From Actinomycetota bacterium (GTDB lineage Bacteria > Actinomycetota > UBA4738 > CALAEC01): a DNA stretch of 40,627 bases. Positions within the stretch are counted from its first letter, which is position 1, and every line of letters starts with the position of its first letter. Under the pieces are notes generated by a model. The model was not told the DNA's origin, made no database searches, and saw only the letters and a list, made by a program, of their open reading frames with translations. A program made the translations under genes and the position numbers. The stretch spans positions 1 through 40,627 of the forward strand of contig DASUTW010000060.1 of NCBI GenBank assembly GCA_036374395.1. Reading direction: 5' to 3'. Shown piece by piece: positions 9,294-38,143 of the stretch.

Positions 9294-10535
9294 ATGCACG
9301 CGATCGAGATCGAGGGGCTGAGCAAGCGGTACTTGCTCGGCGAGGACCGTCCGGGGGGGACCCTGGTCGAGGCGATGAGCCGGTCGGCCCGGCGTCTGCT
9401 GCGGATGCGGTCCCGTCCCAGGCGGGACGAGGTGTGGGCCCTCCGGGACGTCACCCTGGCGGTGCCAGAGGGGGAGGCCCTCGGGGTGATCGGCCGCAAC
9501 GGGGCGGGGAAGAGCACCCTGCTCAAGATCCTGAGCCGCATCACCGAGCCGACCGCCGGCGTGGCTCGGACCAGGGGGAGGGTGACGTCCCTCCTCGAGG
9601 TGGGGACCGGGTTCCACCCCGAGCTCACCGGGCGGGAGAACGTGTTCCTCAACGGGGCCATCCTCGGGATGCGGCGGCGCGAGATCGAGCGGCGGTTCGA
9701 CGAGATCGTGGCCTTCGCCGGGGTGGAGCGGTTCATCGACACGCCGGTGAAGCGGTACTCCTCGGGGATGTATCTCCGCTTGGCCTTCTCCGTGGCCGCC
9801 CACTTGGAGCCGGACATCATGGTGGTGGACGAGGTCCTGGCGGTCGGGGACGCGGCCTTCCAGGCGAAGTGCCTGGGGCGGATGGAGACGGCCGAGCGCG
9901 AGGGGCGAACGGTGGTGTTCGTGAGCCACAACCTGGAGGCCATCGCCAAGCTGTGCCCCCGGACGATCTGGCTGGACGGCGGAGAGATCCGGGAGGAGGG
10001 GGACTCCCCGGCCGTGATCGACGCGTACCTCTCCGAGGAGGTCACGCGGGCCTCGGAGGAGACCGTGGCCGGGGACCCCGGGGCCGCCGTGGTCCTCCGC
10101 TCCGTGCGGGTCCTGGGAGAGGCCGGTGAGCCGCTCGAGACGCTCCTGCGCGACGAGCCGTTCCACATCGAGCTGCGGTTCTCCGTCCGGACCCAGGTGC
10201 CGGGCCTCGACGTCGCCGTCTGGGTGGCGAACGCGTTCGGGACGGAGGTGTTCCGCGAGGGATGGTTCGATCACTCGCCGGACCGTCCGAGCGAGCCGGG
10301 CGAATATGTGGCCACCCTTCGGGTCCCGCCCGTCCTCAACGTCGGGGAGTACACCGTCGGGGTGTGGATCGGCTCGCCGTACGAGACGCTGGTGGACGCG
10401 GTTGTGGCCCGGTTCCACCTCCAGGGTGACGTGAAGAACCGCCCGTCCCGGTCGGTGGTCCTGCACCTGCCGTGGGAGGTGCGGAGGATCAGCGGCGCCG
10501 ACGACCCGACCCCTGCCCCCCACCCCAGACGATGA
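9294..10535 (+). CDS. wzt: Polysaccharide export ABC transporter ATP-binding protein with a C-terminal extension (Wzt/TagH-like)
   Basis: Walker A is 'GRNGAGKST', the signature is 'YSSGMYLRLAF' and Walker B is 'IMVVDEVLAVGD'. Beyond the NBD lies a further beta-rich domain of about 160 aa (roughly 10041-10532), consistent with a Wzt_C-type glycan-terminus-binding module. It starts 1 nt after the wzm stop. Confidence 0.9.
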   Translation: MHAIEIEGLSKRYLLGEDRPGGTLVEAMSRSARRLLRMRSRPRRDEVWALRDVTLAVPEGEALGVIGRNGAGKSTLLKILSRITEPTAGVARTRGRVTSLLEVGTGFHPELTGRENVFLNGAILGMRRREIERRFDEIVAFAGVERFIDTPVKRYSSGMYLRLAFSVAAHLEPDIMVVDEVLAVGDAAFQAKCLGRMETAEREGRTVVFVSHNLEAIAKLCPRTIWLDGGEIREEGDSPAVIDAYLSEEVTRASEETVAGDPGAAVVLRSVRVLGEAGEPLETLLRDEPFHIELRFSVRTQVPGLDVAVWVANAFGTEVFREGWFDHSPDRPSEPGEYVATLRVPPVLNVGEYTVGVWIGSPYETLVDAVVARFHLQGDVKNRPSRSVVLHLPWEVRRISGADDPTPAPHPRR

Positions 10536-11779: not shown

Positions 11780-13444
11780 ATGTCTGTGGGACAATCCGCT
11801 CATGAACCGACTCGGTCCCGGCACCCTGACGGCATGAGCGGGGACACCGCCCCCCTGGAGCTTCGGGACTACCTCGCCCTCCTGTGGCGCCGCAAGTGGA
11901 TCATCGCCGCCATGACCATCGTCGCGGTGGGAGCCGCCCTCTTCTACTCATACCGCCAGATACCCGTGTATACGTCGTCGGCCGAGGTGGTGGTCCGTCC
12001 CATCCAACTGGAGCCGGCTCAGTCCGCCCGAGGCACAACGGGGTTCGTGAACATGGAGACGGAGACCCGGGTCGCGAATTCCGGGCCCGTCGCCGAACGC
12101 GCCCTTGATGAGTTGGAGGATTCCGGTATCGAGCCGGGGGACGTCTCAGCCAGCCAGATCGAGGAGTCGGAGACGCTCCTGTTCACCGCCACCGGCCTCT
12201 CGCCGGAAAGCGCCCAGGCCTCGGCGCAGAACTGGGCCGAGGCATACCTGGGGCTCCGGAAGGAGCAGGCTCTCGCCGACCTTGAAGAGGTCCGCCGACC
12301 GCTCGAGGATCAGATCACCGTCCTCGGGCAACAAGCGGCGGTCCAGCGACGCATCATCCAGGAGAACCAGGAGTCCAACATCGCCGTCGCCACCACCGCG
12401 CAGCAGCGGTACGCGGCGATCCTGGCGGAGGTGTCCCTACTGCGACAGGACCTGAACCGGTACATCTCCGCCGGGAGCCTACACGTGGGAGAGGTCCTCC
12501 GTGCGGCGCCGACCCCCACCGCTCCCGCCAATCGGAACCACGTGACGACCGGGGGCCTCGCCTTGCTGGTGGGGATGTCTCTCGGCGTGGGGGTGGCCTA
12601 CCTGCGGGACCGGCTAGACCCGCGGGTACGGGGGACGCGAGAGCTGGAGGTTCACAGCGGAGGCTCGGTCCTCGCGTTGATCCCCTCCGGCAAGCCACTG
12701 AAGGACAACTTGCCCATCACCATGGCCGAGCCGGCCTCCGAGCTGGCCGACGCCTACATCGCCCTTGGCTTCCGCCTCCTCCGCATGGCGGGGGACCGGG
12801 AGATCAGGACACTGGTGGTGACGAGCTCCCTCCCCCAGGAGGGGAAGTCCTCCACCGTGGCCAACCTGGGCGTGGCCATGGCCCGATCCGGGAAGCGCAT
12901 CATCTTGGTCTCCGCCGACCTCCGAAAGCCCGGCCTCCTGACCTACTTCCCCCAATGGAACGGACGAGGCCTCGTGGACATGGTGCGGGATGGGACCGGC
13001 ATGAGCGAGGCGCTCTCCACCACATCGGTCGACAACCTGTGGGTGCTGCACGGGGGGTCCTCTCTGCGAGGATCCAGCCCGCTGGAGATCGTCTCGTCGG
13101 ACGAGATGCGGCGCCTGCTGATCGAGCTCGGCAGCTGGGCAGACCTCGTCCTGATCGACACCCCCCCACTCCTCGGCGCGTTCGATGCGTCCGCACTGGC
13201 CGCCTTCGCCGACGGCGTCCTGTTCGTGGCCGACGGGAAGCGCGCCAGCGGCACCACGGTCGAACAGGCCCGGCGCGAGCTGGAGCTGAGCGGGGCGAAC
13301 GTCGTTGGGGTCGCCGTGAACCGATACGACCCTCGCGACTACGCGGGCTACGCCTACAGGGCCCCGTACTACCGCCCCGAGAACGGCAGGGTCCTGCCGC
13401 CCCCCGAGCTTGAGCAGCCCCAGGTCTCGCGGGAAGAGCGCTAG
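11780..13444 (+). CDS. Fused polysaccharide co-polymerase (Wzz domain) / BY-type tyrosine autokinase
   Basis: The N-terminus 'LRDYLALLWRRKWIIAAMTIV' (Wzz) is followed by a coiled-coil region and a second TM. The kinase part has Walker A 'PQEGKSST', A' 'LVSADLRKP' and B 'LVLIDTPP'. The C-terminal Tyr cluster is 'RYDPRDYAGYAYRAPYYR' (13325-13372). The start may be ATG 11780, GTG 11786 (better spacing to 'AAGGGAG') or ATG 11834. Confidence 0.88.
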   Translation: MSVGQSAHEPTRSRHPDGMSGDTAPLELRDYLALLWRRKWIIAAMTIVAVGAALFYSYRQIPVYTSSAEVVVRPIQLEPAQSARGTTGFVNMETETRVANSGPVAERALDELEDSGIEPGDVSASQIEESETLLFTATGLSPESAQASAQNWAEAYLGLRKEQALADLEEVRRPLEDQITVLGQQAAVQRRIIQENQESNIAVATTAQQRYAAILAEVSLLRQDLNRYISAGSLHVGEVLRAAPTPTAPANRNHVTTGGLALLVGMSLGVGVAYLRDRLDPRVRGTRELEVHSGGSVLALIPSGKPLKDNLPITMAEPASELADAYIALGFRLLRMAGDREIRTLVVTSSLPQEGKSSTVANLGVAMARSGKRIILVSADLRKPGLLTYFPQWNGRGLVDMVRDGTGMSEALSTTSVDNLWVLHGGSSLRGSSPLEIVSSDEMRRLLIELGSWADLVLIDTPPLLGAFDASALAAFADGVLFVADGKRASGTTVEQARRELELSGANVVGVAVNRYDPRDYAGYAYRAPYYRPENGRVLPPPELEQPQVSREER

Positions 13445-13481
13445 CAGGTCCCGGTCGCTCTCGGAGCGCCTCACTCACCTC

Positions 13482-13502
13482 CGGCGTCGGGCCCCGGCGC
13501 CG
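13482..13502. terminator. GC-rich hairpin between convergent operons (candidate bidirectional terminator)
   Basis: The sequence cggcgtcgg-gcc-ccggcgccg forms a 9-bp stem (one G-U pair) with a 3-nt loop. It lies in the 58-bp gap between the stops at 13444 (+) and 13503 (-). There is no U-tract. Confidence 0.35.
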
Positions 13503-14414
13503 TCAGCCTGAGCTCGCGGGGGCCCGCGGGACACGATGCCCGCGGTTCCCCAACCCCGCCACCAGGCCCGGCAGGAGGCCGGTCACCTCCCCGACCCCCA
13601 TGGCGAACAGCTCTCGGTTGCCGGTCGCCACGCCACGGAGGAGGAGCCACGGAGCCCGGACCAGGTCGCGGAGGACCCGCCGGGCGATGAACAGGTCCCC
13701 CCGGCGAAGGTGCTTCCCATAGAAGCTCCCCTGCCCGCGCGCGTAGCGACGGTACAGGGCCGTGCGCTGCGAGGGATCCTGCCAGGCGAGGTGACCCACC
13801 ACGATCCCGGGCTCGTAGATGATCGGCACCCCCGCCCGGAGGGCCCGGTAAGCCCAGTCGTTGTCCTCCCCCGCCACGTTCAGGGAGGGATGCTCGTCCA
13901 GGTACCCGATCCGCTCCAGGAGCCGGATCGGGAACCCCATGTTGGCTGGGAACAGGACGTCGCCGTCGATCAGCGGCTCCTTGTACACGGCCGGCTCCGC
14001 CCGGGTGATCACCGTTAGCACGAGCCCCTCCCCCTCCGGCTCCACGCGCCCGGTCACAATGGCGTCCCCCACGTTACGAACCCGGGCGGCGAGCTGCCCG
14101 ATCCAGTCCTCCCGCGCCCGGCAGTCGTCGTGGGTGATGGCCGTGTACGGCGTGCGAACCCGCTCCAGCCCCCGATTCGTGGCGGCGGCGATCCCATGCT
14201 GGTTGGAGCGCAGATGGACCACCTCCAGACCGTCGGCCGTGAGGGCGTCCACCCACCTCTCGACCTCCGGGTTCTGGGACTGGTCCACCACGATGAGCTC
14301 CGCCGGCCAGGTCGCACCAGACCGGATCGACTCGAGGCAGCCGCGGAGGAGGTCGCGCCCCAGGGTGGGGATCACCACCGAAACATCCTCCGCCACGGCC
14401 CGCCCCGCGCTCAC
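13503..14414 (-). CDS. Glycosyltransferase family 2
   Basis: Motifs are 'VSVVIPTLGRDLL', 'LIVVDQS' and 'ITHDDC'. GTG at 14414 overlaps the upstream gene's TGA (GTGA). The 14415-14603 part of the listed ORF overlaps the upstream CDS. Confidence 0.85.
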   Translation of the reverse strand: MSAGRAVAEDVSVVIPTLGRDLLRGCLESIRSGATWPAELIVVDQSQNPEVERWVDALTADGLEVVHLRSNQHGIAAATNRGLERVRTPYTAITHDDCRAREDWIGQLAARVRNVGDAIVTGRVEPEGEGLVLTVITRAEPAVYKEPLIDGDVLFPANMGFPIRLLERIGYLDEHPSLNVAGEDNDWAYRALRAGVPIIYEPGIVVGHLAWQDPSQRTALYRRYARGQGSFYGKHLRRGDLFIARRVLRDLVRAPWLLLRGVATGNRELFAMGVGEVTGLLPGLVAGLGNRGHRVPRAPASSG

Positions 14415-15856
14415 GTGGCCTCCTCCAGCAGCTCCGGGAACGACACGACCAAGTCCACCTCGTCGGGCCCCGGGCACGGCCGGTCCCACAGCTCCCCGGC
14501 CAAGAGGAACGTGGCCCGACGTCCCGTGTGGTACTCCAGGGCATCGCGGGCCGCCCACTCGTAGATCAGGTCGTGGACGGCGTACGCGCCGCGAGGCGCC
14601 CACTCGACCACGCTACGGCGGACCCCGCAGACGGCCACCACGTCCCCGTCCTCGGTCTCGGCGGCGATCCTCGCCGAGGAGGCCTCGACGACGTCTGCGG
14701 AGCGCAGACGCACGCTCACGCTCAGGGCCAGGGAGAGCACCGCCCCGGCCGCCAGGACCCCGGCCACCGCCCCCACGGCGGCGCGTCGACGGAAGCCAAC
14801 GCGGGCCCCAATCACCGCGACGAGGGCCGACAGCACCAGCCACGTCGGGGTGAACAGCCTCGGCGACCCCTGGCGGGGGACCAGGAGCACCACCGGCACG
14901 TTGACCAGCACGATCAGCCCCGCACCGGCCAGGATCGCCCGCCGGATGAACCCACCGTTCCAGACCGTCGCGGTCCCCGCGAGGATCAGCGGGCCCGCGC
15001 GGGCGCCGAGGAGCCCCCCGACGGCCAGGACGGCCAGGCTCACCGGGAAGGCCCAGGCCACCGCCAGCGGTACGGAGTGGAGCCCCAACCCCACCGCGGG
15101 GAACTCCAGGTAGAAGGAAGGATCGCGGAACAGGCTGGCCACCCGCTCCCCCAGCGACACACCGAGCCGCGGATCCTCCCCGGGCCACAGGACGAAGGCG
15201 GCGAGGACCATCACGACCGGCACGGCGGTGGAGACCAGCGCCGCCCGACGCCGATCCCGCGCGGCCACGAGCCAGGCAGCCAGCGGGAGGGCCAGGAGGG
15301 ACTGCTCCACCGAGAGACCGGCGCCGAGTACCGCGAGGGCCGCCCACCCGTGCCGGCCGGCGCGGTGGAGCCGAAGGGCCCAGAGCGCCAGCGCCAGTCC
15401 CAGGGGGATGTGCAGGGCGGCAGGCCACAGCGCGGCCTCGGTCCCCAATGGCTGGAGCAGCCACACGGCCGCGCCGACTTCCGGCCAGGGGGCAGGCGTC
15501 CCCAGGTCCCGGAGGAGGCCCCGCAGCAGCAGAGCCACGGCGAGGGTGAGCGCCAGAGGGACGGCGATGGCCACCCCGAACGGGATCGTCTGGCACACGC
15601 CGGTGGTGACGAGGATCTCCAGGAAGTGGGCGGGACGCATCGCCCCCAGCCGCTCCACCGAGTCGCCGAGCGCGGAGGCCAGCCCCACCCGCTGCGGCTC
15701 CATGCACTTGGAGAAGTCGTCGGCCAGCGGCGCCCCCCGGAGCACCACGGGGATCGACACGGCCACGAAGACGACGGCCACCAGCAGCAGCCCCAGCCGG
15801 GCTCCACGGCCCTCCGGCGCGGCCTCCGGCACCCCTTCCTGGCGGCGCACCTTCAC
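14411..15856 (-). CDS. Polytopic membrane protein, GT-C-like, homolog of 5501-7084
   Basis: GTG 15856 overlaps the TGA of the upstream GT2 (GTGA). TM1 'LGLLLVAVVFVAVSIPVVL' is followed by 'APLADDF' and 'AMRP', which align with 'FYSDDW' and 'AMRP' in the 5501-7084 gene. About 11 TM segments precede a soluble C-terminus. Confidence 0.8.
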   Translation of the reverse strand: MKVRRQEGVPEAAPEGRGARLGLLLVAVVFVAVSIPVVLRGAPLADDFSKCMEPQRVGLASALGDSVERLGAMRPAHFLEILVTTGVCQTIPFGVAIAVPLALTLAVALLLRGLLRDLGTPAPWPEVGAAVWLLQPLGTEAALWPAALHIPLGLALALWALRLHRAGRHGWAALAVLGAGLSVEQSLLALPLAAWLVAARDRRRAALVSTAVPVVMVLAAFVLWPGEDPRLGVSLGERVASLFRDPSFYLEFPAVGLGLHSVPLAVAWAFPVSLAVLAVGGLLGARAGPLILAGTATVWNGGFIRRAILAGAGLIVLVNVPVVLLVPRQGSPRLFTPTWLVLSALVAVIGARVGFRRRAAVGAVAGVLAAGAVLSLALSVSVRLRSADVVEASSARIAAETEDGDVVAVCGVRRSVVEWAPRGAYAVHDLIYEWAARDALEYHTGRRATFLLAGELWDRPCPGPDEVDLVVSFPELLEEAT

Positions 15857-16794
15857 GGCCCGCTGCCTCTGCCACTCGCCAGCGGACGGACCCACTCCTC
15901 CGCCCCCGCCGTCCACGACGGGGAGCCCCCCCTCGCCCGGGCCCGCCGCTCCGCGACGCCAGGCCACGCCAGGGCCACGACGGCCCGGACGATCGAGCCC
16001 GGGTCCCCCCGGAGGGCGGCCGCCCAGAAGTATCGGGCCGCCCGGGCGCGTCGCCGATCCCGAAGCGCCTCCCACGCGGCCCACCGGTAGTGGCGCACCA
16101 GGTCCACCGCGATGCCGTGGCGGCGTGCCACCACGTCGAGCTCCTCCAGCATCCGGGGCATGGCACTCGATCTCCCGCGGCGGACGGACACCGCCACCAG
16201 CGGCTCCGGAACGCAGGCCGGCGGGCCGGCCCGGGCGAGACGGATCCACAGGTCCCAGTCCTCGCTGGTGGTTAGGTCGGGGTCGAATCCCCCCACCCGC
16301 CGGAGCAGATCCGCGGCCACCAGGACGCTCGACGTCCCCCCAGGAACGGCGTCGTGCCGCGCGAGAGCCGCCACCACCTCCTCGGGCGGAGGAGGCGGGG
16401 TCCCGTCGACCACGCGGAGGCGCTCGTCCACGATCACCTCGCCACCGTAGACCCACCGCCTGCCGGTCGCCGCCGCCGCGTCGAGCTGATGGCGGAGCTT
16501 CTCTGGGGCCCACAGGTCGTCGTCGTCGAGGAACGCCACCCAAGCCCCCCGAGCCATCTCGATCCCGCGGTTGCGCGCCGCGCTCACCCCGGCGGGGGCC
16601 TCGTTCCGAACCGCCCGGACCCGCGGGTCCGCGATGCCTCCGAGGAGGTCGTGGGTGCCGTCGGTGGAGGCGTCGTCGACCACGATCGCCTCCAGATCGA
16701 CCGCCCGCTGACCCAGCACGCTCCGCAGCGCCAGCGACAGGGGCCCGGCCCGGTCCCGGGTGGGGATGATCGCGCTGACCTCGGGGCCGGTCAC
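15853..16794 (-). CDS. Glycosyltransferase family 2 (paralog group with 2-760 and 17732-18697)
   Basis: Motifs are 'VSAIIPTRDR', 'IVVDDASTDGT', 'ARNRGIEMARGAWVAFLDDDDLWAPEKL' and 'EDWDLWIRLA'. GTG 16794 overlaps the TGA of the deacetylase gene. Confidence 0.88.
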   Translation of the reverse strand: MTGPEVSAIIPTRDRAGPLSLALRSVLGQRAVDLEAIVVDDASTDGTHDLLGGIADPRVRAVRNEAPAGVSAARNRGIEMARGAWVAFLDDDDLWAPEKLRHQLDAAAATGRRWVYGGEVIVDERLRVVDGTPPPPPEEVVAALARHDAVPGGTSSVLVAADLLRRVGGFDPDLTTSEDWDLWIRLARAGPPACVPEPLVAVSVRRGRSSAMPRMLEELDVVARRHGIAVDLVRHYRWAAWEALRDRRRARAARYFWAAALRGDPGSIVRAVVALAWPGVAERRARARGGSPSWTAGAEEWVRPLASGRGSGP

Positions 16795-17735
16795 CGGATC
16801 CGGTCGGCCCGGCTCAACCTGATGCTCAGACGCACCAGGAGCTCGTCGGGCGGCAGGCGGCCGGGCTCCCACCGCCCCAGCAGGTGGCGATCCTCCCTCG
16901 GATGCATCGGCCGCGGCCGGCCCGTCCATGCAGCCGCGTACCCGGCCTCCCGGACCTTCCTCGCGACCCGCCCGTCTGCCTTCCCGTGCGGGTAGGCGAA
17001 CAGGTCCAGGGGGCGGCCGACCACCTCGGCCAGCTCCCCCCGGCCAGCCCGGACGGCCTCCTCGAGGTCCTGGTCGGGAAGCCGGGGCAGCACCGCGTGG
17101 TCGACGGTGTGGAACCCGATCGTCATCCCCGCGTCGGCGAGGGCAGCGATGTCGCCTGGCTGCAGGTGGCGGACCTCGTCCCGTCCCTCCTCCTCGGCGA
17201 CCCGCCGGAGGCGCTCGTCCGCCTCGCAGGCAAGGATCACCGCCTCCAGGTCGGCGGGCACCTCCAGACGGACGGCCACCTCGGAGACCCCTCGCTCCCG
17301 CACCCACCGCTCCAGGGCTTCGAACCAGTAGGGGCCGGCCCCGTGGAGCGATCGCCCGCTGAGGAAGAACGTGGCCGGCAGTCCGAGCTCGCGGAGGATC
17401 GGCAGGGCAGACACGACGTGCGACGGGTAATCATCGTCGAAGGTCAGCGCGAACCTGGGCGTCCCCCGGTCGGCGCCGGCCAGCAGGTCGGCGAGGGGCA
17501 CCACCCGCCCGACCTCGGCCAGAGCCTCCACCTGCCGGCGGAACAGCTCCGCCGGGATCGAGGGGATCACCTGCGGCCCGGAGATCTCCCCTTCCGTCAG
17601 CCGATGGTAGAGGAGCACCAGGCTACGACCCCGGAGCCCCGCGATCCGGCGGGACAGGGCTCTGACCCCCCGGATCCTCAGCGCGGCCCGGGCCAGCCGG
17701 CGCGCCGCATCGCTGATTGACGTAGGGAGTCTCAT
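16791..17735 (-). CDS. Polysaccharide deacetylase (CE4 / NodB homology domain)
   Basis: Motifs are 'FALTFDDDYPSH', 'ATFFLSG' and 'IGFHTVDHAVL'. ATG 17735 overlaps the upstream TGA (ATGA). Confidence 0.85.
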   Translation of the reverse strand: MRLPTSISDAARRLARAALRIRGVRALSRRIAGLRGRSLVLLYHRLTEGEISGPQVIPSIPAELFRRQVEALAEVGRVVPLADLLAGADRGTPRFALTFDDDYPSHVVSALPILRELGLPATFFLSGRSLHGAGPYWFEALERWVRERGVSEVAVRLEVPADLEAVILACEADERLRRVAEEEGRDEVRHLQPGDIAALADAGMTIGFHTVDHAVLPRLPDQDLEEAVRAGRGELAEVVGRPLDLFAYPHGKADGRVARKVREAGYAAAWTGRPRPMHPREDRHLLGRWEPGRLPPDELLVRLSIRLSRADRIR

Positions 17736-18697
17736 CCCCGGCCCCGCTGAAGGGCCTCCCGGGCCAGGTCGTCCAGCCACCGCTGGGCCTCCCGCCGCCA
17801 CTCCTCATCCTCCGGACGACTACGGATCAGCCGGAACACCCTGTCGGAGCCCGCGGCGGGGTGGAGCAGGGCCACGGCCGCCCGGCCCACCGACCGGAGG
17901 TCGCCCATCGAGACGGCCATGGCGTAGTGCCCCGCCGCCCTGCCCCGCCGGCCCGCCCGGAGCCACGCCCAGGCCGCCCGGCGCTGCATGGCAGCTCGGT
18001 CGACGGGGATCCCGTATCGCTCGGCCAGCAGGTCGGGCTCGCGGACGATCGACGCAGTCTCCAGCGGCACGTTCGAGGGATGGAACCTGTATGCGACCAG
18101 CGGCCGGGGCACCCACGCCGGCGGCCCCACCCGCGCCAGACGGATCCACATGTCCCAGTCTTCCGTGCGCTTGAGCGTGGTGTCGAATGCCCCGACGTGG
18201 ACGAGCGCCTCCATGCTGACCACCACGTTCGACGCCCCCGTGGGCACGGGGTTGTATCTCGGGAGGGCGGCCACCACCTCCTCCGGATCGGGGGGCAGGC
18301 TGCCCGTCAGGACCCGCAGGTCCGCGTCCACGTTGACGTCCCCCCCGTACACCCACGCCCGCCCCGAGACCCTGGCGGCCTGGAGCTGCCGGACCAGCTT
18401 GTCGGGCGCCCAGAGGTCGTCGTCGTCGAGGAAGGCGACCCAAGCGCCGCGGGCCTCGTTGATGCCCCGATTCCGGGCGGCGCTCACTCCCATGGAGCGC
18501 TCTTCTCGGAGGAGCCGCACCCGCGGGTCGTCCAGGCCCGGAACCGATGGCGCGGAAGCGGACCCATCGTCGACCACGATGACCTCGACCTCCACGTCCA
18601 GCTGCCGCAGGGCGCTCGCCAGGGTAAGTCTCAGGACGTCGCCGCGGTCGCGGGTGGGGATCACCACGGACACGTCCGGCGTCCTCGAGGCCACCAC
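17732..18697 (-). CDS. Glycosyltransferase family 2 (paralog group)
   Basis: Motifs are 'VSVVIPTRDR', 'VIVVDDGS', 'ARNRGINEARGAWVAFLDDDDLWAPDKL' and 'EDWDMWIRLA'. GTG 18697 lies 4 nt downstream of the previous stop. Confidence 0.88.
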   Translation of the reverse strand: MVASRTPDVSVVIPTRDRGDVLRLTLASALRQLDVEVEVIVVDDGSASAPSVPGLDDPRVRLLREERSMGVSAARNRGINEARGAWVAFLDDDDLWAPDKLVRQLQAARVSGRAWVYGGDVNVDADLRVLTGSLPPDPEEVVAALPRYNPVPTGASNVVVSMEALVHVGAFDTTLKRTEDWDMWIRLARVGPPAWVPRPLVAYRFHPSNVPLETASIVREPDLLAERYGIPVDRAAMQRRAAWAWLRAGRRGRAAGHYAMAVSMGDLRSVGRAAVALLHPAAGSDRVFRLIRSRPEDEEWRREAQRWLDDLAREALQRGRG

Positions 18698-18701
18698 GGC
18701 G

Positions 18702-20195
18702 TCAGCGCTCCTTCACCGCCACCATCACCACGTTCTTCCCCAGGGGCGGGTGCCGGAGGAAACGCTGGATCCACCGGCTCAGGGGCACCATCAGCCGGTC
18801 GTACCCCCACACGGTGGAGCTCCCGATGCTGGTCCGGTGGAGCCACCTGTAGACCACGAGGTACGGGAGGACCCCGACCACGTCGAAGTAGTAGAGCGAC
18901 ACCACCCGCAGGCCGGCGGCGTCGGCGAGCCGCCGGAGCCGCCCCAACGAGTAGCGGCGGTAGTGCCCGGCCTTGTGGTCGAGGAGGCTGTACAGGCGCT
19001 CCAGGGCCGGCCCGAACACCAGCAGCGCGCCGCCCGGCCGGAGGGCCTCGGCGGCCATCCGCACCTCCTTCTCGTCCTCCTCGATGTGCTCAAGAACGTT
19101 GACGTACAGCGCCGCGTCGAAGGATTCGAAGGCCCGGCGCCCGTAGTCAACCAGGGTCTCCCTGCGGGCCTCCACCCGCCGGGTAAGGGCGGCGTACGGC
19201 TCGAGCTGGGCGAACATGTTCTCGGCGGGCTCCAGGGCCACGATCGACATGTCCGGAAATCGCTCCACCAGCTTCCGAGTGATCGTCCCGGCGCCGGCCC
19301 CCACCTCCAGGACCCGGCCCCGAAGGTACGGGCCAAAGTCGTCCAGCACCCAGTCGAAGAAGTGCTTGCTGGCCGCCAGGCATTCGAGGTCCTCCTCCGC
19401 GGCGAAGTGTTCGACCGGGAAAGCGCGCCCCGCGGGGGACAGGCGGCGCCGGCGGAACCGCAGCACGTCCGTCCGGAGAGCCACCAGATGGGAAACGAAC
19501 TCCCCCAAGTCCCTCATCCGGAGCCCGCCCCCGCCGGCGATCGGCCGCCGGTAGATGATCGAGGCTTCCCCCACCCGGTAGCCCTTGGCGATGGCCGTGG
19601 CCACGAAGGCGGTGTGGAGGCTGTAGCTGTTCACCGGTATCTCCCCGAACCGGAACTCTCGCACCACGTCCGTGCGGGCCACCCGAAAGCTGGTGGTGGC
19701 GTCGGCCACACGAGGCGTGGACGTGATCAGGCGGAACGCCGCGTTGGCCGCCTTGCCAAGCGCCCACCGGGAGAAGGCCATCCCAGGGGTACCGCTCCCA
19801 GGGGCCCATCGCGACCCGATCACCACGTCGAGACGGCGATCGACGAGGACGTCCACGAGGTTGGGGATCTGGCTGGGATCGTGCCGGCCGTTGGCATCGA
19901 GGGTGACCACCAGGTCGCTCCTCCCCTCCTCGACCACCCGCCGGAACCCCTCCAGGTAGGCGAGCGCGGGACCGGCCGGCGGTGCCGGGAAGGTGATCAG
20001 GGTGATCCCCAGCTCCTCGGCCACCTCAGTGGCCGTGGCCCCGCAGGCGCCGTCGTCGAACAGGAGAACGTCGAGGTCGATCCCCCGGGCCCGGAGGGCG
20101 TACGCCGCCACGGCGACCTCGCGGAGGACCGGACCGATCGCCGGCCCGACGTCGTAGGCGGGCAGGATGATGGTGGCCGCTTCCACTCGGTTCAT
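18702..20195 (-). CDS. Bifunctional protein: DPM1/Ppm1-like GT2 domain fused to a class I SAM-dependent methyltransferase
   Basis: The N-terminal half has 'TIILPAYD', 'LLFDDGA', 'VTLDANGRHDPSQIP', 'VVIGSRW' and 'DATTSFRV', which together look like polyprenol-phosphate-sugar synthase motifs. The C-terminal half has 'VLEVGAGAGTIT' (motif I), 'YVNVLEHI' and 'LRPGGALLVFGP'. The start is ATG 20195 ('MNRVEAATIILP') or GTG 20234. Confidence 0.85.
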   Translation of the reverse strand: MNRVEAATIILPAYDVGPAIGPVLREVAVAAYALRARGIDLDVLLFDDGACGATATEVAEELGITLITFPAPPAGPALAYLEGFRRVVEEGRSDLVVTLDANGRHDPSQIPNLVDVLVDRRLDVVIGSRWAPGSGTPGMAFSRWALGKAANAAFRLITSTPRVADATTSFRVARTDVVREFRFGEIPVNSYSLHTAFVATAIAKGYRVGEASIIYRRPIAGGGGLRMRDLGEFVSHLVALRTDVLRFRRRRLSPAGRAFPVEHFAAEEDLECLAASKHFFDWVLDDFGPYLRGRVLEVGAGAGTITRKLVERFPDMSIVALEPAENMFAQLEPYAALTRRVEARRETLVDYGRRAFESFDAALYVNVLEHIEEDEKEVRMAAEALRPGGALLVFGPALERLYSLLDHKAGHYRRYSLGRLRRLADAAGLRVVSLYYFDVVGVLPYLVVYRWLHRTSIGSSTVWGYDRLMVPLSRWIQRFLRHPPLGKNVVMVAVKER

Positions 20196-20312
20196 ACCGT
20201 ATCTGCCTCGAGCCAGGATCGGCCTCGGGAGCACCGACGAGGTGCCTCGATCCGGCCGCTCCAGGGTAGCCGCTCTCGGCGAGCTTCAGCATCACCATCG
20301 GGCATCTGCGCG

Positions 20313-20318
20313 TACTGT
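20313..20318 (+). promoter_or_regulatory. Candidate -10 hexamer (TACTGT) positioned for a leaderless transcript of the GT4 gene
   Basis: It matches TANNNT and ends 6 nt before ATG 20325. No SD lies upstream of that ATG. It sits in the divergent intergenic region 20196-20324. Confidence 0.2.
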
Positions 20319-20324
20319 AGGGCG

Positions 20325-21443
20325 ATGCGGCTTGCTCACGTGGTCCCGCGGGAGGAACAACCGTGGTCCGGGATCCTCACCGTGATCGTGCACCTCACCG
20401 CGGCCCTGCGCCGGCAGGGCCACGAGGTCGAGGTGTGGCAGCTCCACCGCTGGAACGATCGCTACGCGGCGCAGCGCCGCGTCCTTGAGGCCGCCGAGGT
20501 GGTGGAGATCCCCGTGGCGGTGGACGCCCCCGCGTGGCGGGTGGGTCGGATCGCCGCCTCGCTGGCCGAGAAGCGGAGCATCGACGTCGTCCACCTCCAC
20601 GGGGCGTTCAACATCTGGACCGCGCTCGTCGGCCGGGCCCTCCGCCGTCCCTACGTCTTCTCCCCGCACAGCGGCTACGATCCCGTGTCGCTGCGACGGA
20701 GCCGGTTCCGCAAGACGGTCTACGGGCTCGCCTTCGAGCGGACCCTCCTCCGCCGGGCCGCGCTCCTCGTGGGCCTCACCGAAGTCGAGGTGGCCCAGCT
20801 CCGGGCTCGGGGGGCTCGCGGCCCCGCCGTGGTCATCCCCAACGGGGTGGCCCCGCCCCCGGAGGGGGTGGACCCTGCGGCCTTCCGAGAGGAATTGGGC
20901 ATCTCGCCCCACGCGCCTTTGGCCCTGTTCGTGGGGCGCCTCGACGTCCACCGGAAGGGGCTGGACGTCCTGGTCGAAGGGATCGCCGACGCTCCGGGAT
21001 GGCACCTGGCCCTGGTCGGTCCTCGGTTCCGGGACGTGGAGCGCCTGGAGGCCGCGATCCGCCATCCGGACCTGAGAGACCGCGTCCACCTCGTCGGAGT
21101 CAGGTACGGGGACGCTCTGAGCCAGGCCCTGGCAGGGGCCACAGTCTTCGCCCTCCTGTCCCGGTGGGAGGGCCTGCCGATGGCCCTGCTGGAAGCCCTG
21201 TCGCTCGGGACCCCAGCCGTAGTCAGCCCGGCCGTGGAGGGCTTGGTCCCGGTGGCCGCGTCGGGAGCGGGCTGGGTCGCGGACGACGGGCGCCTTGTGG
21301 ACGTCCTCCGCGAGGCGGCGTCGGGCGCCGCGGCCCGCGCCGAGGCGGCCCGAGCACTGGCCAGCCGGTACGACTGGGATGCCGTGGCCCGCGAGTACGG
21401 TGCCGCCTACCGGCGGGCCCGCGACCGGGTCGCTACGGCGTAA
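20325..21443 (+). CDS. Glycosyltransferase family 4
   Basis: Motifs are 'MRLAHVVPREEQPWSGI', 'FVGRLDVHRKGLDVL' and 'SRWEGLPMALLEALSLGTPAVVS'. This is only the last 372 codons of the listed 1151-aa ORF. The rest of that ORF is antisense to the minus-strand operon. Confidence 0.85.
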   Translation: MRLAHVVPREEQPWSGILTVIVHLTAALRRQGHEVEVWQLHRWNDRYAAQRRVLEAAEVVEIPVAVDAPAWRVGRIAASLAEKRSIDVVHLHGAFNIWTALVGRALRRPYVFSPHSGYDPVSLRRSRFRKTVYGLAFERTLLRRAALLVGLTEVEVAQLRARGARGPAVVIPNGVAPPPEGVDPAAFREELGISPHAPLALFVGRLDVHRKGLDVLVEGIADAPGWHLALVGPRFRDVERLEAAIRHPDLRDRVHLVGVRYGDALSQALAGATVFALLSRWEGLPMALLEALSLGTPAVVSPAVEGLVPVAASGAGWVADDGRLVDVLREAASGAAARAEAARALASRYDWDAVAREYGAAYRRARDRVATA

Positions 21444-22962
21444 CCTGCGCCGGCCGGTACAGGTGGTACCCGCCGAAGGTCCGGTCCCAGCGGTAGGCCT
21501 CCCGCATCGCCGCTACCACACGGGTCCCGAAGTGGTAGTCGCGCCACCATCCGTCGTTCCCCTCCAGGGTCTCCACGAGCACGAGGGCGTCGAACTCCTG
21601 CTCTCGGATCCGGTCCACCAGGTCGTCGACGAGTTCTGGCTCCCGCCGGTCGATCCGGTTGAGCATGAACGGGTCGAACACCACCGGCGTCTGACCTCGG
21701 AGGGCCGGGAGGCCCGGGTCCTCCGAGAGCAGGGTCGCTCCGGCGGGCAGCTCCCCTGCCAGCGGGTCAGGGCGGAAGGGAGACTCGGCACCGAGGACGA
21801 TCTTCCCGGCCTCCTTCAGGTCCTCGCGCATGTGAACGGCAACGCCCGTGAACGTGACCCACACGAGGGCCACGGCCACCACCGACGCGAACACCTCGTC
21901 CCCACGCTCTCCGAACGCCGCCGTTAGCTGTCCGGTGACCAGCGCCATCAGCACGACGAGGTCGATGAGCTGGTTGGAGCCGGTCCCGATGTCCGCGAAC
22001 ACTACCAGCAGGATCGCGGCGGCGAACAGGAGGCCCCAGGCGAAGACGCTCGGCTCCACCCGCCGCAGGGTCAGCAGCCCGAACGCCGCCACAGGGAGGA
22101 GGACCCATTGGGCCACCGCCCCCTCGAACACGGCGTCGAGGAACCGGAGCGGAGCGGTCGCGGCGTCGCCCACGCTCAGGATCCCGCCCGCCGCGAACCG
22201 GACCAGGTTGTCGTACATCCGCCCGTCCGAGGCAACGTGGAGGAGCCCCAGAGACACCACAGTCAGGCCCACGAACGACCCCGCGAATACCAGGAGCCTG
22301 CGGCGGTCTCGGGGCCACAGCCACACGGCGAGCGCGAGGGGGGCCCACAGCGCATTGAACCGCGACAGAAGGGCCAGGGTGCACAGCGCCCCGGCCCCCA
22401 CCGCCCGGGCGTCGCTCCGAGTCCGCAGGACCAACGCCACCGCGGCGAGCTGGAAGAGGACCGGCAGGACGTCGCCGCCCACGCTCGTGCCACCAAGCAG
22501 CCCGGCGCCCCCGGCCACCACCGCGGCGGTGAGACCGAAAGCGACGGGACGGGGGGAGCCGAGCCGGACCAAGGTGACGTAGAGGAGGACCAGGAGCGCG
22601 GCCGTGGCCAGGAGCGCCACCAGCTTGCCCGAGGTCAGGTACTCGCCGGTGACCCGCGCCACCAGCCCGTGGAGGACGAACGGACCAGGCATGTACCGGA
22701 CCCCCCCATAGTGAGCCCCGTCGAAGATCTGCGGGTACAGGCCCTCCGCGTCGAGATGCTGGGCCAGGGCGATCCAGACGCCCTGGCGGTGCCGGACCTG
22801 GTACCGATCCCCCAGGTGCACCACGGCCAGGAACAGCCATGACGCCACGACCCCGGCGCTGGTCAGGATGAGCGCGCCTCGTAGCCACCGGGTCAGTCGG
22901 GCGGGGAGCCGCGGAAAGGCGTCACCGACCGATGGTCCCACGCGGGGATCGTCGCGAAGCAT
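21433..22962 (-). CDS. Polytopic membrane protein, GT-C-fold-like glycosyltransferase candidate (family member C)
   Basis: Motifs are 'VHLGDRY', 'YGGVRYMPGPFVLH', 'TGEYLTSGKLVAL', and C-terminal 'LLSEDPGLPALRGQTPVVFDPF...EFDALVLV...DYHFG'. The start is ATG 22962 ('MLRDDP') or GTG 22971. Its 3' end overlaps the convergent GT4 gene by 11 nt. Confidence 0.8.
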   Translation of the reverse strand: MLRDDPRVGPSVGDAFPRLPARLTRWLRGALILTSAGVVASWLFLAVVHLGDRYQVRHRQGVWIALAQHLDAEGLYPQIFDGAHYGGVRYMPGPFVLHGLVARVTGEYLTSGKLVALLATAALLVLLYVTLVRLGSPRPVAFGLTAAVVAGGAGLLGGTSVGGDVLPVLFQLAAVALVLRTRSDARAVGAGALCTLALLSRFNALWAPLALAVWLWPRDRRRLLVFAGSFVGLTVVSLGLLHVASDGRMYDNLVRFAAGGILSVGDAATAPLRFLDAVFEGAVAQWVLLPVAAFGLLTLRRVEPSVFAWGLLFAAAILLVVFADIGTGSNQLIDLVVLMALVTGQLTAAFGERGDEVFASVVAVALVWVTFTGVAVHMREDLKEAGKIVLGAESPFRPDPLAGELPAGATLLSEDPGLPALRGQTPVVFDPFMLNRIDRREPELVDDLVDRIREQEFDALVLVETLEGNDGWWRDYHFGTRVVAAMREAYRWDRTFGGYHLYRPAQVTP

Positions 22963-22970
22963 CCGGAGCA

Positions 22971-23015
22971 CAGGATAGCCGGGGCACCGAGAGGGGCGGA
23001 AGACTCGCTATCCTG
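22971..23015. repeat. Perfect 9-bp inverted repeat CAGGATAGC-N27-GCTATCCTG in a divergent intergenic region
   Basis: I read it directly: 22971-22979 is the reverse complement of 23007-23015. It lies between the member C start (22962) and the phosphoribosyltransferase start (23043), and it is AT-richer than its surroundings. Confidence 0.6.
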
Positions 23016-23963: not shown

Positions 23964-24941
23964 ATGCCGCGGGCGTTGGTGACGGGAGGCGGGGGGTTCC
24001 TCGGATCCCACCTGTGCGAGCGTCTGCTGGCCGAGGGGTGGGAGGTCCTCGCGGTCGACTCGCTCCTCACCGGGAACAGGGACAACCTCACGGGCCTCCT
24101 CGGGCATGACGGGTTCCGCTTCGAACAGCGCGACGTCACCGAGCTGGAGGAGGACGACCCGGTCCTCGAGGAGGCCCTCGATTGGGTCCTCCACCTAGCG
24201 TCCCCGGCGTCGCCGGTCGACTACCTTGAGTTCCCCCTGGACACCCTCCGGGTGGGCTCGCTCGGGACGCTGAGACTGCTGGAGGTGGCCCGGGCGAAGG
24301 GAGCGTCGTTCTTCCTGGCCTCCACCTCGGAGGTCTACGGCGACCCCCTGGTCCACCCGCAGCCCGAGACGTACTGGGGCAACGTCAACCCGATCGGCCC
24401 GAGGAGCGTGTACGACGAGGCCAAGCGGTTCGCCGAGGACGCCACCATGGCATACCGTCGACAGCACAACCTGAAGATTCGGATCGTCCGGATCTTCAAC
24501 ACCTACGGCCCCCGGATGCGACGCGGAGACGGACGGGCCGTCCCCACGTTCATCGAGCAGGCTCTCCGCGGCGAGCCGCTCACGGTCCATGGGACCGGTA
24601 CCCAGAGCCGCTCGCTCTGCTACGTGGACGATCTGATCGAGGGCTTCTACCGCCTGATCCTGTCCGACCAGACCGGCCCCATGAACGTCGGCAACCCCGA
24701 GGAGATCGCCATCGCAGACCTGGCCACGACGATCCGGGACATCGTCGGCAGCCCCTCGGAGGTCGTCATGGTCGACCGGCCCGTGGACGATCCGGAGATG
24801 CGGCGGCCCGACATCGAGCTGGCCCGACGGGTCCTCGGCTGGGAGCCGACGGTCCCACTCCGGGACGGCCTCACCCGCACCATCGACTGGGCCCGGACCG
24901 CCTGGCGCTCCGAGGTCGGGTCCGCGGACGACCGTCCGTGA
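23964..24941 (+). CDS. uxs: UDP-glucuronate decarboxylase (UDP-xylose synthase type extended SDR)
   Basis: Motifs are '[12 protein letters not shown]', '[36 protein letters not shown]' (YxxxK) and '[10 protein letters not shown]'. The SD 'GAGGGAG' precedes ATG 23964. Confidence 0.88.
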
Positions 24942-38126: not shown

Positions 38127-38143
38127 GGGCGCGCTACGCGCCC
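38127..38143. terminator. Hairpin GGGCGCG-cta-CGCGCCC between convergent genes (candidate bidirectional terminator)
   Basis: It is a perfect 7-bp GC stem with a 3-nt loop. The loop is the TAG stop (38134-38136, minus strand) of the deacetylase gene. It lies 15 nt after the plus-strand stop at 38112. Confidence 0.4.

What the first reader, a model, noticed from the sequence alone, without database searches (positions are those of the whole stretch)
13503..20195. Six-gene operon joined by ATGA/GTGA overlaps: GT2-MTase, GT2, CE4, GT2, GT-C-like, GT2, matching the logic of a lipid-linked amino-sugar donor pathway
Reading the minus strand, consecutive genes overlap by 4 nt at 17732-17735 (ATGA), 16791-16794 (GTGA), 15853-15856 (GTGA) and 14411-14414 (GTGA). 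There is a 4-nt gap at 18698-18701. This argues for tight translational coupling and fixed stoichiometry.

The combination of a GT2 (candidate polyprenyl-P-HexNAc synthase), a CE4 deacetylase and a GT-C transferase matches two established pathways:
- ArnC/ArnD/ArnT.
- Mycobacterial PpgS (Rv3631), then a deacetylase, then Rv3779, which installs GalN on arabinogalactan.

The operon may therefore add a free-amine sugar to the glycan from outside the membrane.
Basis: partly seen in the sequence, partly recalled or inferred. Interest (0 to 1): 0.6.

Follow-up and report, generated by a model that had tools for sequence, protein, structure and literature searches.

The report
Arn-like amino-sugar decoration operon, new GT-C family
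Six tightly packed genes in a cell-surface sugar-polymer locus of an uncultured high-GC bacterium encode a lipid-sugar synthase fused to a methyltransferase, an intracellular deacetylase, three ordinary glycosyltransferases and an unnamed membrane glycosyltransferase; together they probably add a de-acetylated amino sugar to the wall glycan from outside the membrane, but no step has been shown biochemically.

Summary
Six minus-strand ORFs at 20195-13503 are joined by one 4-nt gap and four ATGA/GTGA overlaps. A 129-bp divergent intergenic region bounds them at one end and a convergent gene at the other.

The domain calls hold, with refinements:
- Only g1 is a DPM1/ArnC-type polyprenyl-phosphate glycosyltransferase. 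DPMS and ArnC are the only glycosyltransferases in its top 50 fold matches, and hhalign against E. coli ArnC gives 96%. Its DxD motif is an invariant DxN.
- g2, g4 and g6 are soluble WcaA/EpsD-like GT2s.
- The CE4 (g3) has intact catalytic motifs and no signal peptide in any of 22 family members.
- g5 matches no Pfam or NCBIfam family. It has 11 predicted transmembrane segments, an invariant DD just after TM1, and a confident model whose nine best PDB matches are all GT-C enzymes, with weak scores.

Synteny: a g3-like CE4 lies within 10 kb in 21 of 24 distinct g5 loci that have upstream DNA, 22 counting the divergent CE4 of L019. Compact g1-CE4-g5 triads occur in Acidobacteriota. However, g1 is found in only 9 of 22 g5-bearing MAGs. 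A cytosolic, HfsH-like role for the CE4 on lipid-linked oligosaccharides remains a live rival.

Verdict: the Arn-like reading is partly supported (about 0.45). This is a new variant of a known kind, of moderate interest.

The parts
20196..20324 (.). 129-bp divergent intergenic region between the g1 start (20195, minus) and a GT4 gene start (20325, plus). Presumed promoter region of the six-gene operon.
   Evidence: No sigma-70 consensus was found, which says little for a high-GC actinobacterium.
18702..20195 (-). g1, 497 aa. DPM1/ArnC-type GT2 domain (about 1-250) fused to a class I SAM methyltransferase (about 270-497). Candidate polyprenyl-phosphate-sugar synthase.
   Evidence: Pfam and NCBIfam. 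PDB sequence hits DPMS 5mlz 4.5e-7 and ArnC about 2e-4. AF2 pLDDT 83.9. In Foldseek the only glycosyltransferases in the top 50 are DPMS and ArnC. hhalign against E. coli ArnC gives 96.2%, E 2.6e-9. 'TLDANGRHDP' is invariant, DxN in place of DxD, and the ExGxGxG SAM motif is intact. 31-37% identity to the housekeeping Lnt-Ppm1 fusion of relatives.
17732..18697 (-). g2, 321 aa. Soluble GT-A GT2 of the WcaA/EpsD/TuaG/MftF type, 52% identical to g4.
   Evidence: Directly upstream of the CE4 in most related loci.
16791..17735 (-). g3, 314 aa. CE4 (NodB-domain) metal-dependent de-N-acetylase, predicted cytoplasmic, PgaB-N/HfsH-like layout with an insertion of about 40 aa.
   Evidence: PF01522, 75 bits. 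No hydrophobic N-terminus in any of 22 family members. Invariant LVLxYHR, TFDDD, H106, HTxxH and YPHG. 33% identity to the second CE4 of the window. No ArnD-level similarity.
15853..16794 (-). g4, 313 aa. Soluble GT2, paralogue of g2, directly upstream of g5 in most loci.
14411..15856 (-). g5, 481 aa. Polytopic membrane protein of an unnamed family with a GT-C-like fold. Invariant D46-D47 after TM1. Small C-terminal extracytoplasmic alpha/beta domain with invariant cysteines.
   Evidence: No Pfam, NCBIfam or PDB sequence hit. 11 hydrophobic segments. Conservation. AF2 pLDDT 85.7, pTM 0.88. Foldseek top 9 are all GT-C, prob 0.95-1.0, E 3.5e-3 to 7e-2, TM 0.30-0.42. The distant family member P0373 carries a sub-threshold PMT_2 hit and two others carry C-terminal TPRs.
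13503..14414 (-). g6, 303 aa. Soluble GT2 (MftF/EpsD/rhamnosyltransferase-like). The most conserved partner of g5 and directly downstream of it in most loci.
   Evidence: 57-69% identity across loci.

Best explanation
The six ORFs form one compact operon inside a 40-kb envelope-glycan locus of an uncultured high-GC actinobacterium. The locus also holds a Wzm/Wzt ABC exporter, a UbiA-type lipid-pentose donor gene, several GT-C-like proteins and a Wzx/Wzy set.

Proposed mechanism:
1. g1 is a DPM1/ArnC-type GT2. It loads a HexNAc from a nucleotide sugar onto polyprenyl phosphate at the cytoplasmic face.
2. g3, the cytoplasmic CE4, removes the N-acetyl group. The methyltransferase half of g1 may then methylate the lipid-linked sugar.
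3. An unidentified flippase moves the lipid-sugar across the membrane.
4. g5, the founding member of an unnamed GT-C-fold family, transfers the amino sugar onto a glycan from outside the membrane.
5. The backbone of that glycan is built in the cytoplasm by the soluble GT2s g2, g4 and g6 and by other transferases of the locus.

Shown here: gene order and junctions, domain and fold classes, intact catalytic motifs, absence of export signals on the CE4, and co-conservation.

Inferred: the lipid acceptor, the sugar, the order of steps, the acceptor glycan and the role of the methyltransferase.
For: - g1 fold and sequence match polyprenyl-phosphate glycosyltransferases best. These are DPMS and ArnC and the NCBIfam models for dolichyl-P-hexose transferase, PpgS, AglJ and ArnC. 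g1 is 31-37% identical to the Lnt-Ppm1 fusion present in 39 of 40 relatives.
- The CE4 is cytoplasmic and catalytically intact across 22 homologues.
- g5 has an invariant DD in the first outer loop. Its nine best PDB matches are all GT-C (STT3, ArnT, PglB, Pmt4), followed by unrelated transporters at prob about 0.1. A distant relative carries a PMT_2 signal.
- Synteny: contiguous g1-CE4-g5 in L001/L016 and L010; g1-g5 with a CE4 1.1 kb away in L019; all six genes in L024, L028, L030 and L031.
- A g3-like CE4 lies within 10 kb of g5 in 21 of 24 distinct loci with upstream DNA, 22 counting the divergent CE4 of L019.
- Every g1 locus examined also holds CE4 and g5.
- The synthase, deacylase, GT-C logic is established for ArnC/ArnD/ArnT (PMC4402001) and for the mycobacterial and corynebacterial PpgS to Rv3779 route (PMC9671496, PMC3485146).
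Against: - The second Asp of the g1 DxD motif is an invariant Asn, and the upstream 'DD' nucleotide motif is not conserved.
- g1 has no transmembrane helix; there is only one borderline hydrophobic segment at 431-449.
- A full-length g1 was found in only 9 of 22 g5-bearing MAGs. Seven Acidobacteriota loci with the g2-g3-g4-g5-g6 block have no DPM1-like GT2 within 10 kb.
- In most loci the CE4 follows the WcaA-like g2, not g1.
- The g5 fold matches are weak (best E 3.5e-3, TM at most 0.42), and there is no sequence link to ArnT.
- g3 shows no ArnD-level similarity.
- No flippase gene lies in the operon.
Confidence: 0.45

Rival explanations
1. HfsH-like reading. g2, g4 and g6 build a HexNAc-containing oligosaccharide on a polyprenyl-diphosphate carrier in the cytoplasm. 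The cytosolic CE4 de-N-acetylates one residue of that intermediate before export. The free amine may then be methylated by the g1 methyltransferase or sulfated by the neighbouring sulfotransferases. g5 is a GT-C that adds an unrelated side branch outside the membrane from whatever lipid-P-sugar is available, for example the product of the housekeeping Ppm1.
For: - The core block g2-g3-g4-g5-g6 is conserved without g1 in many loci and genomes.
- The CE4 always sits directly behind a GT2.
- L004 holds a second g2-like-then-g3-like pair with no GT-C beside it.
- g3 shares the PgaB-N/HfsH-type LVLxYH layout with the second CE4 of the window, which does hit the HfsH model.
- HfsH is reported to be cytosolic and is proposed to act on lipid-linked precursors (PMC5362036).
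- In L030 a Wzx-type flippase follows g6 directly.
Against: - It does not explain the compact g1-CE4-g5 triads, in which g2 and g4 are displaced.
- It does not explain why g1 was never seen without CE4 and g5.
- g3 itself does not hit the HfsH model at E < 0.01.
Confidence: 0.3
2. Self-contained lipid-monophosphate oligosaccharide line, with haloarchaeal Agl-like logic. g1 primes polyprenyl-P with a sugar. g2, g4 and g6 extend it into a short oligosaccharide, and the CE4 edits one residue. g5 then transfers the whole oligosaccharide en bloc to a protein or glycan acceptor outside the membrane.
For: - g1 best matches the NCBIfam models for the dolichyl-P hexose transferase and AglJ.
- g2, g4 and g6 all give weak hits to AglG, which extends a Dol-P-linked sugar.
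- The top fold matches of g5 include the oligosaccharyltransferases STT3 and PglB.
- It explains why three GT2s are welded to the CE4 and the GT-C.
- A GT2 extending polyprenyl-P-GalN has been proposed for C. glutamicum Cgp_0396 (PMC9671496).
Against: - All NCBIfam scores are far below their cut-offs.
- g5 has only an 80-aa C-terminal domain, too small for the large STT3/PglB-type acceptor-binding domain.
- g1 is missing from many genomes that have the block.
Confidence: 0.12
3. g5 is not a glycosyltransferase of lipid-P-sugars. It is instead a divergent Wzy-type polymerase or another polytopic assembly protein, and g1 is a chain-terminating GT-methyltransferase whose methyl cap is read by the Wzt C-terminal domain.
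For: - Wzy proteins are polytopic and often match no family.
- Wzt at 9294-10535 carries a Wzt_C cap-binding domain.
- GT-methyltransferase fusions act as terminators in ABC-transporter-dependent pathways (my own knowledge, for example WsaE).
Against: - The window already has a Wzy_C protein next to a likely Wzx.
- The invariant DD after TM1 of g5 and its GT-C-only top fold hits argue against a polymerase.
- The GT domain of g1 is DPM1/ArnC-like, not of the chain-extending type.
Confidence: 0.07

Closest known systems
ArnC / ArnD / ArnT (with ArnE/F) lipid A Ara4N pathway of E. coli and Salmonella
   Same: The logic matches: a DPM1-type GT2 makes an N-acylated lipid-P-sugar, a cytoplasmic-face CE4 removes the acyl group, and a GT-C transfers the amino sugar outside (PMC4402001). 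g1 is homologous to ArnC (hhalign 96%; fold). g3 is a CE4 like ArnD. ArnT is among the best fold matches of g5. The arn operon also has overlapping junctions.
   Different: g3 and g5 show no family-level sequence similarity to ArnD or ArnT. g1 has DxN instead of DxD, lacks transmembrane helices and carries a fused methyltransferase. There are no ArnA or ArnB (formyl/amino-arabinose) genes and no ArnE/F flippase. Three extra GT2s are interleaved. The likely acceptor is a wall or surface glycan, not lipid A.
Mycobacterial/corynebacterial GalN decoration of arabinogalactan: PpgS (Rv3631) + Rv3632, unknown deacetylase, Rv3779
   Same: The host is an actinobacterium. The locus resembles an arabinogalactan locus, with an ABC exporter, a UbiA-type donor gene and GT-Cs. 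The route is GT2 lipid-P-HexNAc synthase, then de-N-acetylation, then GT-C transfer (PMC9671496, PMC3485146). g1 hits the PpgS model weakly.
   Different: The PpgS score is 37 bits against a cut-off of 370, so g1 is not an orthologue. No Rv3632-like small partner was seen. Here a candidate deacetylase is encoded in the operon, whereas the mycobacterial one is unidentified. g5 was not compared directly with Rv3779.
Caulobacter HfsH (cytosolic CE4 of holdfast synthesis)
   Same: Both are CE4 enzymes without an export signal, sit in a polysaccharide locus among GT2/GT4 genes, and are thought to act on lipid-linked precursors before flipping (PMC5362036).
   Different: g3 does not reach the HfsH model at E < 0.01. 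HfsH is not paired with a GT-C or a DPM1-like GT2.
Three-component extracytoplasmic glycosylation systems (GtrA/GtrB/GtrX; UbiA-type pentofuranose systems, PMC11127046)
   Same: Both combine a lipid-P-sugar synthase with a GT-C transferase that adds side-chain sugars after export. The same window holds a UbiA gene back-to-back with another GT-C-like gene.
   Different: This operon adds a deacetylase step and a methyltransferase domain, no GtrA-type flippase was found, and the GT-C belongs to a different, unnamed family.

Membership tests
DPM1/GtrB/ArnC-type polyprenyl-phosphate glycosyltransferases (GT2) | GT-A catalytic domain specifically similar to DPMS/ArnC rather than to chain-extending GT2s | tested here: met
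   PDB phmmer gives DPMS 4.5e-7 and ArnC about 2e-4. In Foldseek the only glycosyltransferases in the top 50 are DPMS and ArnC. hhalign against E. coli ArnC gives prob 96.2%, E 2.6e-9. g1 is 31-37% identical to the Lnt-Ppm1 fusion of relatives.
DPM1/GtrB/ArnC-type polyprenyl-phosphate glycosyltransferases (GT2) | DxD (DAD) metal-binding motif | tested here: not met
   g1 has 'LDANGRHDP' aligned to 'DADLQ(H/N)PP' of DPMS and ArnC. N102 is invariant in 29 family members.
DPM1/GtrB/ArnC-type polyprenyl-phosphate glycosyltransferases (GT2) | Membrane anchoring (transmembrane or interface helices) and a polyprenyl-P acceptor | tested here: inconclusive
   No clear transmembrane segment; one borderline hydrophobic stretch at 431-449. 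The model has a long helix at 227-252 and a helical hairpin at 442-479. Activity cannot be tested with these tools.
PpgS (Rv3631) equivalog | Score above the NCBIfam NF058614 cut-off | tested here: not met
   37.2 bits against a cut-off of 370.
CE4 / NodB-domain de-N-acetylases (PF01522) | Domain above the gathering score, with Asp-Asp and His-x-x-x-His metal/catalytic motifs | tested here: met
   75.2 bits against 23.1. Invariant T98-F-D-D-D102, H209-T-x-x-H213 and Y-P-H-G 248-251 in 22 sequences.
ArnD (lipid-linked sugar deformylase) | Sequence membership of the ArnD family | tested here: not met
   No ArnD NCBIfam hit at E < 0.01. BLASTP against E. coli ArnD aligns only the HxxxH region, E 0.009.
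ArnD-like mode of action | Cytoplasmic location (no signal peptide or transmembrane segment) | tested here: met
   Hydropathy shows no hydrophobic N-terminus in g3 or in 21 homologues; the N-termini are basic and amphipathic.
GT-C glycosyltransferases (GT-C_A class: ArnT, PMT, STT3/PglB, Emb) | Polytopic membrane protein with an acidic catalytic motif in the first extracytoplasmic loop | tested here: met
   11 hydrophobic segments, a basic N-terminus, and invariant D46-D47 seven residues after TM1. The model has two short helices in that loop.
GT-C glycosyltransferases (GT-C_A class) | Fold similarity to solved GT-C structures | tested here: inconclusive
   The top 9 Foldseek hits are all GT-C with prob 0.95-1.0, but E is 3.5e-3 to 7e-2 and TM 0.30-0.42.
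Named GT-C sequence families (PMT_2, ArnT/GT83, GT87, etc.) | A Pfam, NCBIfam or profile hit | tested here: not met
   None for g5 or for 33 family members, apart from three weak DUF6056 hits. The PDB profile search was empty. hhalign against ArnT gives prob 0.7%. The only link is transitive: distant relative P0373 has PMT_2 at 24.8 bits, below the gathering score of 26.1.
Rv3779-type GalN transferase | Sequence similarity to Rv3779 | not tested
Wzy/O-antigen-ligase family | Wzy_C domain | tested here: not met
   No hit for g5. Another gene, 32083-33522, carries Wzy_C.

The most novel reading that the evidence does not exclude
g1, g3 and g5 would form a previously undescribed four-activity system: a lipid-P-HexNAc synthase, a cytoplasmic CE4 de-N-acetylase, a fused methyltransferase and a new GT-C family. 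It would install a free, N-methylated or (with the recurrent neighbouring sulfotransferases and PAPS genes) N-sulfated hexosamine on the envelope glycans of uncultured Actinomycetota. The module would have been exchanged with Acidobacteriota. The g3-type cytoplasmic CE4 would then be a model for the still-missing deacetylase of the mycobacterial GalN pathway.
Probability: 0.2. Interest if true: 0.65.

Novelty: new variant of a known kind. Interest (0 to 1): 0.45.

Why it matters
Extracytoplasmic decoration of wall glycans with cationic amino sugars changes surface charge, phage recognition and resistance to cationic antimicrobials. In mycobacteria and corynebacteria the deacetylase of the GalN route is still unknown (PMC9671496). 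This operon would give three things:
- a gene-linked candidate type for that deacetylation step;
- an unnamed GT-C family, with about 20 full-length 50%-identity clusters among 1.84 billion representatives and an invariant DD motif;
- a conserved fusion of a DPM1-like domain to a methyltransferase, whose chemistry could be tested in standard expression hosts.

It also documents a glycan module shared at 54-60% identity between Actinomycetota and Acidobacteriota soil MAGs and absent from the 40 nearest relatives. That pattern is typical of laterally exchanged surface-glycan cassettes.

Tried and rejected
- A sigma-70 promoter and intrinsic terminator scan of 13300-20500 found nothing useful.
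- Sequence searches of g5 against Pfam, NCBIfam and PDB, including a 33-sequence profile, gave no family.
- hhalign of the g5 family against E. coli ArnT was negative.
- BLASTP of g5 against the four other polytopic proteins of the window showed no relation, so g5 is not a member of the GT-C-like family noted earlier at 2325-3908 and 21433-22971.
- g3 against ArnD shared only the HxxxH motif.
- The 265-aa minus-strand ORF at 20292-21089 was rejected as non-coding on codon-position GC. The real gene there is a + strand GT4.
- A Tat or Sec signal on g3 was considered and rejected: the N-terminus is Arg-rich but has no hydrophobic core in any homologue.

Full report
**1. Observation**

The reverse strand of 13400-20400 shows six consecutive ORFs:
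- g1, 20195-18702
- g2, 18697-17732
- g3, 17735-16791
- g4, 16794-15853
- g5, 15856-14411
- g6, 14414-13503

The junctions are exactly as reported. There is a 4-nt gap at 18701-18698, an ATGA at 17735-17732, and GTGA at 16794-16791, 15856-15853 and 14414-14411.

The start codons are supported in two ways. tblastn alignments of homologues reach query residue 1-7 for every gene. Shine-Dalgarno-like purine runs lie upstream of most starts.

Codon-position GC shows that the space upstream of g1 is not empty. A + strand GT4 gene at 20325-21443 is hidden in a long spurious ORF. The operon therefore begins at a 129-bp divergent intergenic region. It ends 58 bp from the convergent Wzz/tyrosine-kinase gene, whose stop is at 13444.

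Four of five junctions here are 4-nt overlaps, against roughly 3 of 17 other same-strand junctions in the window. My hand hypergeometric calculation gives p about 0.02, but the other starts were not verified. Such overlaps are common in high-GC operons and also occur in the E. coli arn operon. They argue for one transcription and translation unit, not for a particular stoichiometry.

**2. What the six proteins are**

*g1 (497 aa).* It has a GT2 domain and a class I SAM methyltransferase domain.
- The GT2 half is specifically of the polyprenyl-phosphate glycosyltransferase kind. Its best NCBIfam models are dolichyl-phosphate hexose transferase, PpgS, AglJ and ArnC, all far below their cut-offs.
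- Its best PDB sequence hits are DPMS and ArnC.
- An AlphaFold model (pLDDT 83.9) finds DPMS and ArnC as the only glycosyltransferases among its 50 best PDB matches.
- The family profile aligns to E. coli ArnC with 96% probability.
- It is 31-37% identical to an Lnt-Ppm1 fusion that 39 of 40 relatives and the window's own genome carry. This is the same architecture as M. tuberculosis Ppm1 (PMC3485146).
- Two departures: the DxD motif is an invariant D-A-N ('TLDANGRHDP'), and the upstream DD is not conserved.
- The methyltransferase half keeps ExGxGxG. It resembles TleD, FPP methyltransferases, UbiG and amine N-methyltransferases, which does not fix its substrate.

*g2 and g4.* They are 52% identical paralogues. 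Together with g6 they are soluble WcaA/EpsD/TuaG/MftF-like GT2s without hydrophobic segments.

*g3.* It is a CE4. In 22 family members the N-terminus is basic and never hydrophobic. LVLxYHR, TFDDD, HTxxH and YPHG are invariant. It is therefore an intact cytoplasmic de-N-acetylase. It is 33% identical to a second signal-less CE4 at 38134-39000, which hits the PgaB-N and HfsH models. It is not ArnD-like beyond the superfamily motif.

*g5.* It matches nothing in Pfam, NCBIfam or PDB by sequence, even as a profile.
- It has about 11 hydrophobic segments.
- D46-D47 just after TM1 is invariant, as are four cysteines.
- Its model is confident (pLDDT 85.7, pTM 0.88).
- The nine best PDB matches are all GT-C enzymes: STT3, ArnT, PglB and Pmt4. 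EmbB appears lower in the list.
- Probabilities are 0.95-1.0 but E-values are weak (3.5e-3 and above) and TM-scores are 0.30-0.42. Unrelated transporters follow at probability about 0.1.
- An exhaustive profile search found only 136 representatives among 1.84 billion. One of the most distant carries a near-threshold PMT_2 hit and two carry C-terminal TPRs.
- I read g5 as a new GT-C-fold family. The fold class is likely. Membership of any named family was tested and not met.

**3. Context and conservation**

The window is a large glycan locus. It contains:
- Wzm and Wzt, the latter with a Wzt_C domain;
- a Wzz/tyrosine kinase;
- several GT4s;
- a UbiA-type gene back-to-back with another GT-C-like protein;
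- a UXS-like epimerase, a sulfotransferase, a WbaP-like initiating transferase and Ugd;
- a Wzy_C protein beside a likely Wzx.

g5 homologues at 44-83% identity are all unannotated and come from metagenomes. In species-representative genomes they occur in Actinomycetota MAGs, including Nitriliruptorales, and at 54-60% identity in Acidobacteriota (Vicinamibacteria) MAGs.

None of the 40 nearest relatives of the window's genome has g5, a g3 orthologue or a full-length g1. The operon is thus an accessory, probably laterally exchanged cassette.

Gene arrangements across 27 fetched g5 loci (26 distinct, since L001 and L016 are the same contig), plus the two g1-derived loci L030 and L031:
- The block g2-g3-g4-g5-g6 recurs in about 16 loci.
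- A compact g1-g3-g5 triad occurs in L001/L016 and L010.
- L019 has g1-g5 with a divergent CE4 1.1 kb downstream.
- The full six-gene set occurs in L024, L028, L030 and L031.
- A g3-like CE4 lies within 10 kb of g5 in 21 of 24 distinct loci that have upstream DNA, 22 counting the divergent CE4 of L019.

Starting from g1, both randomly chosen long contigs led back to the same gene set. In two further genomes g1 lies 11-13 kb upstream on the same strand.

The converse does not hold. Only 9 of 22 g5-bearing MAGs have a g1 orthologue. Seven Acidobacteriota block loci have no DPM1-like GT2 within 10 kb.

**4. Mechanism**

1. polyprenyl-P plus NDP-HexNAc gives polyprenyl-P-HexNAc (g1);
2. cytoplasmic de-N-acetylation (g3), possibly followed by methylation by the fused domain;
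3. flipping by an unidentified protein;
4. transfer by g5 to a glycan whose backbone is built by g2, g4, g6 and other transferases and exported by Wzm/Wzt.

The precedents are ArnC/ArnD/ArnE-F/ArnT (PMC4402001) and PpgS to Rv3779, where 'as yet unidentified factors' flip and deacetylate the lipid-sugar (PMC9671496).

The main rival, at about 0.3, is HfsH-like. The CE4 edits a lipid-linked oligosaccharide made by the flanking GT2s before export (PMC5362036). g5 then adds an independent branch.
- In its favour: the g1-independent conservation of the block, and the constant position of the CE4 directly behind a GT2.
- Against it: the compact triads, and the dependence of g1 on CE4 and g5.

Two lesser rivals:
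- An Agl-like line that builds an oligosaccharide on lipid monophosphate and transfers it en bloc (about 0.12).
- A reading in which g5 is a Wzy-type polymerase and g1 a chain terminator (about 0.07).

**5. Comparison and novelty**

By function the operon resembles Arn and the mycobacterial GalN route. By membership, g1 is a divergent member of the DPM1/ArnC subfamily (DxN motif, no transmembrane helices, fused methyltransferase). g3 is a CE4 but not an ArnD. g5 belongs to no named GT-C family.

This is a new variant of a known kind of system. The operon is conserved, and the GT-C family and the fusion are undescribed as far as these libraries show. Every biochemical step is inferred.

**6. 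Limits**

- g3 was not folded.
- Rv3779 was not compared.
- MAG incompleteness inflates the apparent absences of g1.

Noticed in passing
window 20325-21443 (+): A GT4 (GT-B) glycosyltransferase gene of 372 aa is masked in ORF lists by a spurious 1151-aa ORF (17988-21443). It is divergent from g1, and its stop overlaps the stop region of the convergent GT-C-like gene 21433-22971.
   Followed up: yes
window 38134-39000 (-): A second CE4 deacetylase without a signal peptide, 33% identical to g3. It hits the PgaB N-terminal and HfsH (oligosaccharide deacetylase) models. The locus therefore encodes two cytoplasmic CE4 enzymes.
   Followed up: partly
L007-L010, L012, L013, L015, L016, L020, L023, L024 (genome contigs): The g5 family and its GT2/CE4 neighbours occur at 54-60% identity in Acidobacteriota (Vicinamibacteria) MAGs as well as in Actinomycetota. 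They are absent from the 40 closest relatives of the window's genome. This points to inter-phylum transfer of a glycan cassette.
   Followed up: partly
L001 15925-21449; L002 4177-7053; L003 5956-6963; L004 12333-16487; L030 2875-4449 and 18945-19898; L031 11497-12372; window 24938-25882: Sulfotransferase genes, and in L001 and L030 PAPS-synthesis genes, recur right beside the GT2-CE4-GT-C block. A cytoplasmic deacetylase next to cytoplasmic sulfotransferases raises the possibility of N-sulfated hexosamine, by the logic of the heparan NDST enzyme.
   Followed up: no
G000:C36 (L029 1387-4008, -): The window's genome and 39 of 40 relatives carry an Lnt-Ppm1 fusion (apolipoprotein N-acyltransferase plus a DPM1-like GT2), the architecture of M. 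tuberculosis Ppm1. This implies a housekeeping polyprenyl-P-mannose supply for GT-C enzymes.
   Followed up: partly
L002 1-1804; L005 2123-3866; L006 203-1871; L018 9142-10849; L028 15298-16969: Gene pairs in which a large methyltransferase-containing protein is followed by a distantly DPM1-like GT2 of about 368 aa. They look like a split, order-reversed analogue of the g1 fusion. L010 6470-7549 and L024 4730-5530 hold a further DPM1-like GT2 directly upstream of g1.
   Followed up: no
window 14001-18000: GC content is about 0.75 over g3-g6, against 0.66-0.72 in the rest of the window. This is a mild compositional difference within the locus.
   Followed up: no
window 832-2301 (+): A 489-aa polytopic protein with a sub-threshold PMT_2 hit (20.7 bits) lies directly behind a g2/g4-like GT2 (2-760). 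This is a second GT2-then-GT-C pair in the window.
   Followed up: no
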